Source: Escherichia coli (GTDB lineage: Bacteria; Pseudomonadota; Gammaproteobacteria; Enterobacterales; Enterobacteriaceae). Taken from it: DNA of 64,000 bases. This document shows positions 49,001 to 52,000 of this stretch, piece after piece. Position numbers: made by a program. The stretch lies in the NCBI RefSeq assembly GCF_030013595.1, contig NZ_CP122768.1; one strand, 5' to 3'. Each line of letters opens with the position of its first letter. Within the stretch, counting starts at the first letter, position 1.

Positions 49001-52000
49001 AAAGCGTTATTCGACACTGTTAGCCTCCACATGCGTCATTGCAGCCGTCGTTTTGCGATTCAAAATCGGGTTAAGGATCAGATAGCTCAGCGCGCCACCT
49101 AATACCGCGTTGACCGGAACAATACCCGGTAACCAGTGGCCTGCGGCAATCCCCAGCGCGACCGCCAGAATCGCCACCCAATTGACACTCATCATACGCG
49201 TGGTCGCAAAGTGCTCATAGCGGCGACGGTTCATCAGATAGTCAGCGATGATCACGCCCCCTACCGGAGGAATAGCTGCCGAAAGGAAGGTCAGCCAGCC
49301 GACAAAATTGTTATACAACCATAATGCGCAGACCGTACCGATAATACCGTTAATCACCGAAAGGGTTTTACTCGACATACCGGTAATGTTGGCGAAACCT
49401 AAACCCGACGCATAGAGCGCGTTATCGTTGGTGGTCCAGATATTCAGCCCCAGCACCACAATCGCAGGCAGCAGCAGACCCTGAGCAATCATCACATCAG
49501 AGATATCCGCCATCCCCAGTGCCGCAGCGCCCGCTGCACCGAAAATAAACATCAACGAGTTGCCGAGGAAAAAGGCCACCATCGCCACCAGCACCGCCAG
49601 TTTGGCATTGCGACCAAACCGGACAAAGTCAGCGGTGAGCGTGCCCGCGCTGATAAATGACCCCACAACCAGCGCCAGTGCGACATTGAAATCTAACGGT
49701 TGTGCGGGAACGACCGCTTTTAATGCGTCCAGGCCGCCCATGCCGTTAACGGCCAGCCACACGGAATAACCGCCAAGGCAGGCGATAGCCGGAACCGCAA
49801 TCACCGAAAGAACCGTCAGCGCCGAAATGCCAAAGAAGACGGTGACGGTCATCAGTAAACCGGAGACGGCAATCAGCAAATTAATATCCAGCCCGGTTGC
49901 CTTGCCCACCGGAATAGCAAACATCGCCACGCCAACGCCAAACCAGCCAACCTGGGTACCCCCCAGCAGCAGTGAAGGCAGCCATGAGCCTTTAACACCA
50001 AACGAGAAGCGAGCAAGAAGATGGGTGGTCAGGCCGGTTTTTGCGCCAATGTAACCAAGAAATGAAGTGTAAATACCGAGGAGAAGATTACCGATGAGGA
50101 CTGCGAGGAAGAAATCATGATAGCTAAGACCGGTTCCGAGAGTGCCGCCGGTCCACATACTGGCGGAAAAGAAGGTTAATCCCAGCATGACGAACGTCAA
50201 TGCCAATACCCCTTTCCGCGCCGACTGCGGGACTGGCCCCTGGCTAAAGTTGTTATCTTGCGACACGAAATTCCCCCTTTTTGCTGTTTGAAACCCAAAA
50301 AATCCGCCGCATTCTATTCATCTGAAGATAAAAAGCAATCGTTTTCGTGGGGGAATATATTTTTTATATGAATGAGTGCAAAAAGGTGGGGGAAAAATTA
50401 TCGGTGTAAAAACAGTGGGTAGGTATGAGAAGACGCGTCAGCGTCGCATCTGGCATCGGCGCATGGTGTCGAATGCGCCACGCGACGCATCCGACAACAA
50501 CCTACTCTTCTATCGCCTGGCGGATCTGATCCAACGACGCAGGATCATCAATGGTCGTCAGATCCCCAGGATCGCGTTTTCGGCAATTGCGAGACAAACC
50601 AGACGTGCGCCGGGCGACCAAAGTTGCCAATCTGGCTGTCCACCAGCGCCATAATCGCCTTCTCTTGCGAATGCGCCACCTCGCGGTCTTCCAGACTGTC
50701 GCTCTCTTTCGGAATGACAAACGCCACCGCCACCTGCCCTTTCAGCGCATCTTTCACCCCAACCACCGCCACTTCGGCAACGCCCGGATGACTGGAGATA
50801 CTCTCTTCAATCTCGCGCGTCCCCAGCCGATGCCCGGCAACGTTAATCACATCGTCAGTGCGCCCGAGAATAAAGTGATAACCGTCAGCATCGCGGATAC
50901 CCCAGTCAAAAGTGGCGTACACCGGACGGGAAAACAGCGACCAGTACGTCTTCACAAAGCGGTCGTCGTCGCCCCAGATGGTCTGAATACAGCCCGGCGG
51001 CAGCGGCCCTTCTACCACCAGCATCCCTTTCTCGTTGACGCCACACGGTTCGCCGGTGACTTCATTAAGCAACTGCACGTTATAGCCATACATCGGCACG
51101 CCGGGGCTTCCCAGACGCGTCGGCCTGTCGTCCAGACCGCGAGCAATCGCCATAATCGGCCAGCCGGATTCGGTCTGCCAGTAGTTGTCGATGACCGGCA
51201 CATCCAGCGTATTGCTCACCCAACTGGCGGTCGGCTCGTCCAGCGGTTCTCCAGCCAGATAGAGCACTTCCAGCGACGAGAGATCGTGTTTGCGAATTTC
51301 AGCGGTAGGGAATTTTTTCAGCACGCGAATGGCGGTCGGCGCTGAGAACATGCGGCTAACCTGATATTTCTCGACGATTTTCCACCACACGCCGCAGTCC
51401 GGCCAGGTCGGTAATCCTTCGTAAACGATAGTCGCCATCCCCGCCAGCAGCGGCGCGTAGACGATATACGAATGCCCCACCACCCAGCCGATATCCGAAG
51501 CACAAAAGAACACACCGCCCGCTTTGCCGCCAAAAATGGTGTCCATCGAGGTCGCCAGCGCCACCGCATATCCGCCGACGTCACGCTGCACGCCTTTAGG
51601 TTTGCCGGTCGTGCCGGAGGTGTAAAGAATGCAGGAGGTTTCGTTGGATTCCAGCCACGCCACTGGCACCCGCGCGCCGATGTGTTGATGGCGCAACGAC
51701 GCGAAATCGACATCCCGCCCGCTGACGCGCGCCATTTTCGCCAGCCCGCGATCCACCAGTAAAACGTGGCGCGGCTGATGCTGCGCCTGACTTATCGCAT
51801 CGTCGAGTAATTTTTTATAGGGAATGATTTTGCCACCGCGCGCTCCGGCATCAGCCGAGACAATCAGCACCGGTTTAGCATCATCAATTCGCGCCGCCAC
51901 GCTGTGCGAGGCAAATCCCCCAAACACCACCGAGTGAATAGCGCCAATGCGCGCGCAGGCCAGCAGAGTAATATGCGCTTCGGCAATCATCGGCATATAC

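What the first reader, a model, noticed from the sequence alone, without database searches (positions are those of the whole stretch)
50502..50640. prpE is frameshifted just before the conserved catalytic lysine
The 596-aa frame ends ...FVSQLPKTRSWGSDDH*, breaking the conserved acyl-CoA synthetase motif PKTRSGK immediately before its Lys. A second frame (ORF 50502..50720) ends ...RDPGDLTTIDDPASLDQIRQAIEE, which looks like the genuine C-terminus. Relative to the 628-aa length I recall for K-12 PrpE, the lengths imply a net loss of about 50 bp near 50566-50571, possibly between short CGCGATCC-like direct repeats. If real, propionyl-CoA formation by PrpE is probably lost while prpBCD remain intact.
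Basis: partly seen in the sequence, partly recalled or inferred. Interest (0 to 1): 0.55.

Follow-up and report, generated by a model that had tools for sequence, protein, structure and literature searches.

The report
Recurrent 50-bp deletion inactivating prpE
This E. coli has lost exactly 50 bp from the end of prpE by slippage between two copies of a 9-bp repeat, removing the enzyme's catalytic lysine; it is an ordinary pseudogene that public annotation already flags, its only mildly notable feature being that the same deletion has arisen independently in several E. coli lineages.

Summary
prpE (minus strand, 50548..52338) encodes 596 aa ending PKTRSWGSDDH*. Intact E. coli and Salmonella PrpE have 628 aa.

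Alignment with intact alleles shows a loss of exactly 50 bp. In intact genes the 9-bp repeat ACGCGATCC occurs twice, 50 bp apart. The window keeps one copy (50569-50577). Gly591, Lys592 and the following codons are physically gone and the rest is out of frame. prpR, prpB, prpC and prpD are intact.

The deletion is real. Apart from it, the 64-kb window differs from its nearest complete genome by 25 substitutions and one IS3 element. Another public assembly matches it almost exactly.

The same junction occurs in 27 of 5,426 complete E. coli genomes. PGAP marks prpE 'frameshifted' in the five carriers inspected. Carrier haplotypes differ by up to 78 SNPs, yet sit 0-4 SNPs from intact alleles. The deletion has therefore recurred at least five times.

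The three other close direct repeats in prpE also have natural deletion alleles.

Inferred consequence: PrpE cannot form propionyl-AMP. The phenotype is probably mild, because Acs and a kinase/Pta route also make propionyl-CoA.

Verdict: a database-annotated pseudogene of a known kind, of low interest.

The parts
50502..52338 (-). Whole prpE pseudogene: the original start codon to the original stop codon, 1837 bp instead of 1887 bp.
   Evidence: Alignment with intact alleles. PGAP annotates the equivalent 1837-bp span as 'prpE, frameshifted' in five other genomes.
50548..52338 (-). Truncated reading frame of 596 aa. Residues 1-590 are PrpE; the tail is WGSDDH followed by a stop.
   Evidence: It matches NCBIfam TIGR02316 propion_prpE over profile positions 1-590 of 628 only. 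PDB homologues align up to residue 590 only.
50569..50577 (-). Deletion junction: the single retained copy of the 9-bp direct repeat ACGCGATCC (GGATCGCGT on the + strand).
   Evidence: alignment. The 9-bp overlap of the two BLAST segments against the intact relative falls exactly here. Repeat family D4 in intact prpE has spacing 50.
50548..50568 (-). Frameshifted tail: six missense codons (W G S D D H) and the premature TGA stop.
50502..50576 (-). Out-of-frame remnant of the genuine C-terminus (RDPGDLTTIDDPASLDQIRQAIEE plus the original stop). It carries one substitution relative to the intact relative.
   Evidence: alignment column 1877: A in the window and L003, G in all others.
50523..50573 (.). 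Remaining 5 GATC (Dam) sites of the prpE 3' GATC cluster. Intact alleles have 7 in 101 bp, and the deletion removed two.
   Evidence: GATC positions in the intact L001; window sequence. prpE is listed as a GATC-cluster gene in PMC493266.
52378..53829 (-). prpD, 2-methylcitrate dehydratase, intact (483 aa).
53863..55032 (-). prpC, 2-methylcitrate synthase, intact (389 aa).
55077..55967 (-). prpB, methylisocitrate lyase, intact (296 aa).
56206..57792 (+). prpR, sigma-54 activator of the operon, intact (528 aa by the relatives' annotation; the listed ORF starts at an upstream TTG at 56194).

Best explanation
prpE in this E. coli is a genuine pseudogene made by a 50-bp deletion between two copies of the 9-bp direct repeat ACGCGATCC. 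This is the signature of slipped-strand (short-homology) deletion.

The deletion removes the DNA for Gly591, Lys592 and the next 14 or so residues, and puts the last 24 codons out of frame. The product is a 596-aa protein without the A10-motif lysine and without the end of the C-terminal domain.

Shown here:
- the exact deletion and its repeat;
- that it is real;
- that it recurs independently in many E. coli backgrounds;
- that the rest of the operon is intact.

Inferred:
- The truncated PrpE cannot make propionyl-AMP, so it makes no propionyl-CoA.
- Because prpE is the last gene of prpBCDE, nothing upstream is affected.
- Because Acs and a kinase/Pta route also activate propionate, the cell keeps a working 2-methylcitrate cycle and the loss is nearly neutral. 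That near-neutrality would explain why the allele persists and why prpE collects repeat-mediated deletions in general.
For: - Exact 50-bp gap bounded by ACGCGATCC in two intact alleles (repeat D4, spacing 50).
- No other small indel in 64 kb against the nearest complete genome: 25 mismatches and 0 gaps.
- An independent assembly, GCA_028039635.1, carries the same allele with 2 mismatches and no gaps over 13.8 kb.
- The exact 596-aa protein is on record from 20 contigs, with at least 4 NCBI accessions listed. Four other truncated variants are on 413, 34, 28 and 6 contigs.
- The junction is present in 27 of 5,426 complete genomes. Intact genes cannot pass that search.
- PGAP calls prpE 'frameshifted' in all five carriers inspected.
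- Recurrence: carriers' prpE differ by 22-78 SNPs. The window is 2 SNPs from an intact allele and strain 3359 is 2 SNPs from K-12-like intact prpE. L004 is 100.0% identical to intact alleles of many genomes. The APEC O78 and OkiPb groups have intact alleles at 99.8-99.9%.
- SNPs 4 bp upstream and 13 bp downstream of the junction give three flank classes.
- Motif loss: all homologue alignments stop at residue 590. S590-G591-K592 lies in a gap-free alignment with 628-aa Salmonella PrpE.
- Redundant routes exist (PMC7360682).
- prpR/B/C/D are intact in the window and in every annotated carrier.
- The other three close repeats in prpE also have natural deletion alleles of exactly the predicted sizes, 39, 75 and 119 bp.
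Against: - No enzyme assay or growth test was possible, so loss of function is inferred from a Salmonella orthologue.
- The repeat is not statistically unusual. About half of shuffled prpE sequences contain a 9-mer repeated within 100 bp, and the window has 53 such pairs. It is also not the longest repeat in the gene. Why this site gives the most alleles is therefore unexplained.
- No hairpin that would favour slippage was found (z +0.2 to +1.0).
- Near-neutrality is inferred, not measured.
Confidence: 0.88

Rival explanations
1. Sequencing or assembly artefact: the gene is really intact and the 50 bp were lost in assembly.
For: One published E. coli draft genome had prpE, acs and cobB frameshifts that Sanger sequencing showed to be sequencing errors (PMC7360682).
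Against: A clean 50-bp loss between 9-bp repeats is not a typical read error. The window has no other small indel in 64 kb against a 99.96% identical relative. The same allele is in an independent assembly, in 27 complete genomes and on hundreds of contigs from different projects.
Confidence: 0.02
2. A single ancient deletion, inherited by descent or passed between lineages by homologous recombination, rather than recurrent mutation.
For: Within each carrier group the allele is clonally inherited: 13 genomes have identical APEC O78-type prpE and 10 have identical OkiPb-type prpE. Between some G..G-class carriers the nearest distinguishing SNPs leave about 100-190 bp that could in principle have been transferred.
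Against: Carriers differ by up to 78 SNPs in prpE, while each has an intact allele 0-4 SNPs away. Distinguishing SNPs lie 4 bp upstream and 13 bp downstream of the junction (three flank classes). Transfer between these classes would need recombination tracts of under about 25 bp.
Confidence: 0.03
3. The 596-aa form is a working enzyme variant, or is rescued by recoding, so propionate activation by PrpE is retained.
For: The truncated protein still scores far above the NCBIfam PrpE cut-off (1222 against 827 bits). Several submitters named it 'propionate--CoA ligase' without comment. The allele persists in a large lineage (413 contigs).
Against: The codons for Gly591-Lys592 and 14 or so more residues are physically absent, so no frameshifting can restore them. 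The lysine is reported as required for adenylation in the Salmonella orthologue, which is 628 aa, 89% identical, and aligns without gaps. PGAP treats the gene as a pseudogene. 99.5% of complete genomes lack this junction.
Confidence: 0.05
4. The recurrence reflects positive selection for losing PrpE, for example less propionyl-CoA or 2-methylcitrate toxicity in propionate-rich guts or propionate-treated feed, rather than neutral decay at a slippage-prone site. This rival concerns the cause of recurrence and is compatible with the mechanism above.
For: There are at least five independent origins of one lesion, plus three other deletion alleles. Three of the four carrier groups among complete genomes come from poultry, pigs or cattle, and the window's nearest relative comes from pig faeces. 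prpBCD and prpR stay intact in carriers.
Against: Host labels are confounded by clonal sampling: four groups only. Two of the other deletion alleles are in frame and keep Lys592, which fits relaxed constraint as well as it fits selection. There is no phenotype data. Carrier frequency is only 0.5%.
Confidence: 0.15

Closest known systems
PrpE, propionate--CoA ligase of the prpBCDE operon (NCBIfam TIGR02316 / NF007815; ANL adenylate-forming superfamily)
   Same: Residues 1-590 are identical to the intact PrpE of the nearest relative (0 differences). The gene occupies the same position as the last gene of prpBCDE, next to prpR. The Pfam domains ACAS_N, AMP-binding and AMP-binding_C are detected.
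   Different: It lacks profile positions 591-628, including the A10-motif Gly-Lys. It is a decayed copy, not a functional member.
The 'frameshifted' prpE pseudogenes annotated by PGAP in E. coli APEC O78, CH4790, EC556, 3359 and OkiPb01676
   Same: They have the identical 50-bp deletion and junction, the same 1837-bp span and the same premature stop.
   Different: They are different prpE haplotypes, 34-49 SNPs from the window. The window's own haplotype is not among the complete genomes. Its nearest complete genome has an intact gene.
Short-direct-repeat (slipped-strand, RecA-independent) deletions, as classically described for lacI and studied with tandem-repeat reporters (from my own knowledge: Albertini et al. 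1982; Lovett and colleagues)
   Same: A repeat flanks the lost segment, one copy is retained, and the deletion length equals the repeat spacing. Other repeats in the same gene yield the predicted deletions.
   Different: The mechanism was not tested here. No hairpin between the repeats was found. The repeats carry GATC sites inside a GATC cluster, a context not known to me to matter.
Acs Lys609 and PrpE Lys592, the catalytic and acyl-regulated lysine of the A10 motif PKTRSGK
   Same: The window's PKTRS aligns with Acs 603-607, directly before Gly608-Lys609, and with PrpE 586-590.
   Different: Here the lysine is deleted outright rather than reversibly acylated.

Membership tests
PrpE propionate--CoA ligase (NCBIfam TIGR02316 / NF007815) | Whole-protein score above the curated cut-off. 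| tested here: met
   1222.2 bits against a cut-off of 827.4, and 1160.7 against 955.
PrpE propionate--CoA ligase (NCBIfam TIGR02316 / NF007815) | Full-length match to the 628-position profile. | tested here: not met
   The match covers profile positions 1-590 of 628 only. The intact relative matches 1-628.
PrpE propionate--CoA ligase (NCBIfam TIGR02316 / NF007815) | A10-motif lysine (Lys592 of PKTRSGK), reported as required for propionyl-AMP synthesis. | tested here: not met
   The protein reads PKTRS590-WGSDDH*, and the codons for G591-K592 lie within the deleted 50 bp. The requirement is taken from the literature.
PrpE propionate--CoA ligase (NCBIfam TIGR02316 / NF007815) | Position as the last gene of prpBCDE, divergent from prpR. 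| tested here: met
PrpE propionate--CoA ligase (NCBIfam TIGR02316 / NF007815) | Propionyl-CoA synthetase activity. | not testable with these tools
   Needs an enzyme assay or complementation of a prpE acs mutant.
Short-direct-repeat (slipped-strand) deletion | The intact allele has the same short sequence at both ends of the lost segment, the mutant keeps one copy, and the length lost equals the repeat spacing. | tested here: met
   ACGCGATCC occurs at L001 2924-2932 and 2974-2982, spacing 50. The window keeps one copy and lacks 50 bp.
Short-direct-repeat (slipped-strand) deletion | Arises during replication, independently of RecA. | not testable with these tools
   Needs fluctuation assays in recA and replication mutants.
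Short-direct-repeat (slipped-strand) deletion | Secondary structure between the repeats that brings them together. This is an enhancer, not a requirement. | tested here: not met
   DNA folds of both strands are no more stable than shuffles (z +0.18 to +0.96).
Programmed ribosomal frameshift / recoding site | Two overlapping frames conserved among orthologues, together encoding the full protein. | tested here: not met
   Only 27 of 5,426 complete genomes carry this junction, and the intact E. coli and Salmonella alleles examined are single-frame, 628 aa. The two frames here together still lack 50 bp of coding sequence.
Homoplasic (recurrent) mutation | The same lesion on distinct haplotypes, each with a closer unmutated relative. 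| tested here: met
   At least five backgrounds have intact alleles 0-4 SNPs away, while carriers are 22-78 SNPs apart.

The most novel reading that the evidence does not exclude
The ACGCGATCC pair at the 3' end of prpE is a true deletion hotspot. On this reading its elevated rate comes from its position inside a Dam GATC cluster (seven sites in 101 bp, the first three exactly 25 bp apart; for example through SeqA binding or MutH nicking of hemimethylated DNA during replication). Alternatively or additionally, its recurrent fixation is driven by selection against propionate activation in livestock-associated E. coli. Either way this would be a contingency-like, sequence-encoded route to switching off PrpE, specific to E. 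coli because Salmonella's codon choice breaks the repeat.
Probability: 0.1. Interest if true: 0.45.

Novelty: already known. Interest (0 to 1): 0.2.

Why it matters
For this genome, prpE should be annotated as a pseudogene. Metabolic reconstructions should route propionate activation through Acs or the kinase/Pta route.

More generally, prpE gives a small, clean natural example of repeat-encoded, recurrent gene decay. All four close direct repeats in the gene have produced deletion alleles in sequenced E. coli, and one of them has done so at least five times. That makes it a useful caution against treating shared indels as markers of common descent.

It does not open a new question in propionate metabolism.

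Tried and rejected
1. Hairpin-assisted slippage. DNA folding of both strands of the intact repeat region gave z-scores of +0.18 to +0.96, so there is no support.

2. Statistical oddity of the repeat. 9-mers repeated within 100 bp occur in about half of shuffled prpE sequences, and there are 53 such pairs in the window. The repeat itself is unremarkable and is not the longest in the gene.

3. General assembly quality as the cause. There are no other small indels in 64 kb, so this is rejected.

4. Single origin. Rejected on haplotypes and junction-flanking SNPs.

5. The first junction search, with a 111-bp megablast query, could not separate carriers from intact genes because both scored 100% (in one or two pieces). 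It was replaced by a 45-mer junction query with an E-value cut-off that intact genes cannot pass.

6. Literature search for a description of this lesion, using prpE with pseudogene, frameshift, APEC or prpE mutant. Nothing relevant was found, apart from a strain whose prpE frameshift proved to be a sequencing error.

7. A first multi-locus BLAST script failed on file layout but still gave usable rows.

8. I did not count all prpE lesions across E. coli, and did not test host association statistically. The tools give no bulk access to pseudogene flags.

Full report
**Setting.** The window is an E. coli chromosomal segment running from aroM and phoA through the tau, frm, mhp, lac, cyn and cod genes and prpRBCDE to yahK and beyond. 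prpE lies on the minus strand and is the last gene of prpBCDE, upstream of codB.

**Checking the observation.** One search lists a 596-aa ORF at 50548..52338 (minus) ending ...FVSQLPKTRSWGSDDH*. It also lists a 72-aa ORF at 50502..50720 in another frame ending ...RDPGDLTTIDDPASLDQIRQAIEE. Intact prpE in two complete genomes is 1887 bp, 628 aa.

A three-way DNA alignment shows a single gap of exactly 50 bp in the window. The intact sequence reads AAA-ACGCGATCC-GGAAAAATGCTGCGCCGCACGATCCAGGCGATTTG(T/C)GAAGG-ACGCGATCC-TGGGG. The window reads AAA-ACGCGATCC-TGGGG. So one copy of a perfect 9-bp direct repeat plus the 41 bp between the copies is missing.

The retained copy is at window 50569-50577. 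This is also the 9-bp overlap of the two BLAST segments against the intact relative.

**What is lost from the protein.** Homologues of known structure align with the window protein only up to residue 590. The Salmonella Acs alignment ends at LPKTRS607, directly before Gly608-Lys609. The NCBIfam PrpE profile is matched over positions 1-590 of 628, whereas the intact relative matches 1-628.

In a gap-free alignment with 628-aa PrpE from E. coli, E. albertii, Citrobacter and Salmonella, the motif is S590-G591-K592. The codons for G591, K592 and about 14 further residues are inside the deleted 50 bp. The last 24 codons are present but out of frame. No recoding event could restore the lysine.

**Is it real?** Against its nearest complete genome (strain HCP5S3_I2, pig faeces), the whole 64-kb window shows 25 mismatches and no gaps. 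The only other differences are this deletion and a 1.3-kb IS3 element present in the relative. The assembly is therefore not indel-prone.

A separate public assembly (GCA_028039635.1) matches 13.8 kb around prpE with 2 mismatches and no gaps, deletion included. The exact 596-aa protein is on record from 20 contigs, with at least four NCBI accessions listed.

**How common is it, and is it known?** I searched with a 45-nt junction query, designed so that intact genes can match at most 27 nt and fail the E-value limit. It finds the junction in 27 of 5,426 complete E. coli genomes.

These fall into four groups:
- 13 with APEC O78-type prpE, mostly poultry and duck isolates;
- 3 pig isolates (EC556, EC571, EC581);
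- 10 bovine isolates (OkiPb);
- 1 human blood isolate (strain 3359).

In all five that I inspected, PGAP annotates 'prpE, propionate--CoA ligase, frameshifted' as a pseudogene, with prpR, prpB, prpC and prpD intact. The truncated protein variants of these groups are on 413, 34, 28 and 6 contigs in the large protein collection.

I found no paper describing the lesion. One paper reports prpE frameshifts in a draft genome that proved to be sequencing errors (PMC7360682). That is why the artefact check above mattered.

**One origin or many?** The same 50-bp gap sits in prpE sequences that differ from each other by 22-78 SNPs. Each carrier, however, has a much closer intact allele:

| Carrier | Nearest intact allele | Distance |
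|---|---|---|
| Window | HCP5S3_I2 | 2 SNPs |
| Strain 3359 | K-12-like 9FA | 2 SNPs |
| Draft assembly L004 | SK1144, 81009, H105 and other complete genomes | 100.0% identical |
| APEC O78 group | many complete genomes | 99.8% identical |
| OkiPb group | several complete genomes | 99.9% identical |

Polymorphic sites 4 bp upstream and 13 bp downstream of the junction give three flank classes (G..G, A..A, A..G), and the window's and strain 3359's flanks match those of their nearest intact alleles. Recombinational spread between classes would need tracts of under about 25 bp. The deletion has therefore arisen independently at least five times, and probably more, since nine haplotypes carry it.

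**Why here?** The repeat is not statistically remarkable and there is no stabilising hairpin.

Intact prpE has four close direct repeats of 9 bp or more. I built the junctions predicted for the other three and searched in the same way. All three exist, and gene lengths and alignments confirm each:

| Repeat | Deletion | Found in | Consequence | PGAP annotation |
|---|---|---|---|---|
| GTGGCGGTGG | 39 bp | 3 genomes, e.g. FDAARGOS_944 | in frame, 615 aa | ordinary CDS |
| CCAGGCGAT | 75 bp | EPEC E2348/69 and O127:H6, four records | in frame, 603 aa, keeps Lys592 but loses 25 C-terminal residues | ordinary CDS |
| CAGCGTGGCG | 119 bp | ET151 and ET450 | frameshift | 'frameshifted' |

So repeat-mediated deletion is a general route of prpE decay in E. 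coli. This fits weak purifying selection on the gene. The 50-bp event is simply the most frequent.

In the Salmonella allele examined the repeat is broken: ACGCGTTCC and CCGCGATCC. The substrate therefore depends on E. coli's synonymous codon choices.

**Consequence (inferred).** Lys592 of Salmonella PrpE is reported as required for propionyl-AMP synthesis (Horswill & Escalante-Semerena 2002, title as cited in PMC5690661). The window protein lacks it and lacks the end of the C-terminal domain, so PrpE activity is very probably lost.

prpE is the last gene of the operon, so no polar effect on prpBCD is expected. Propionate can also be activated by Acs and by a kinase/phosphotransacetylase route (PMC7360682). 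From my own knowledge of the Salmonella work, prpE single mutants still grow on propionate because of Acs. The persistence of intact prpR and prpBCD in all carriers fits continued use of the 2-methylcitrate cycle. I therefore expect a mild phenotype, not loss of propionate catabolism.

**Comparison with what is known.** This is a decayed member of the PrpE family. It passes the family score cut-off and the gene-context test, but fails full-length coverage and lacks the catalytic lysine. The lesion meets the sequence criteria of a short-direct-repeat deletion, and its replication dependence could not be tested. The exact allele class is already annotated in RefSeq as a frameshifted pseudogene. 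What appears unreported is its recurrence and the parallel deletions at the gene's other repeats.

**Verdict.** The finding is correct and well interpreted, but ordinary: a known kind of lesion in a dispensable gene, already flagged by annotation pipelines.

The only unexplained point is why this repeat yields more alleles than a longer, closer one in the same gene. The surrounding GATC cluster and possible selection in livestock-associated lineages are untested ideas.

Interest 0.2.

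Noticed in passing
L001 2928-3028 (intact prpE 3' end); window 50523-50573: The 3' end of intact prpE holds 7 GATC (Dam) sites in 101 bp, against 12 in the other 5.7 kb of that locus. The first three are exactly 25 bp apart, and two of them lie inside the deleted repeat copies. The deletion leaves 5 sites in the window. prpE was listed as a GATC-cluster gene in E. coli and Salmonella by Riva et al. 2004 (PMC493266). Whether the cluster affects deletion rate is unknown.
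   Followed up: partly
L016 (FDAARGOS_944), L017 (E2348/69), L018 (ET151); intact coordinates L001 2729-2777, 2956-3039, 1478-1606: The other three close direct repeats in prpE also have natural deletion alleles: 39 bp in frame (615 aa), 75 bp in frame in EPEC E2348/69 (603 aa, annotated as a normal CDS but lacking 25 C-terminal residues), and 119 bp frameshifting. The activity of the two in-frame variants is unknown.
   Followed up: yes
window 17185-17189; L013 16457-17787: The nearest complete genome (HCP5S3_I2) carries a 1.3-kb IS3-family element about 40 bp upstream of the 969-aa autotransporter gene (window 14244-17153, minus strand). The window lacks it. The two alignment segments overlap by 5 bp in the window, which would fit a target-site duplication.
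   Followed up: no
window 50267-50501 (prpE-codB intergenic region); L002, L004, L005, L008: The length of the prpE-codB spacer varies widely between strains: 235 bp here and in HCP5S3_I2, about 330 bp in K-12-like and APEC O78 strains, 370 bp in L004 and about 1,030 bp in L005. The sequence looks like REP/BIME-type palindromic units, which I did not analyse.
   Followed up: no
L004 and L006, 10695-10815: In two deletion carriers with ST131-like prpE, codA is followed directly by lacA. The cynRTSX genes present in the window (44338-47694) are absent there. In OkiPb01676 (L012) cynR is split by an IS4-family IS421 element.
   Followed up: no
window 50511 (the ATA codon, minus strand, at 50511-50513): One of the two substitutions separating the window's prpE from the intact HCP5S3_I2 allele lies in the now untranslated tail (ATG to ATA, Met626 to Ile-equivalent). 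It is shared only with L003. It would fit decay after the frameshift, but it is a single site.
   Followed up: partly
window 22716-23387; L013 23319-23729: In the nearest relative PGAP marks a PIG-L deacetylase family gene here as partial (missing C-terminus). The window has a 223-aa ORF at the corresponding place. I did not examine it.
   Followed up: no
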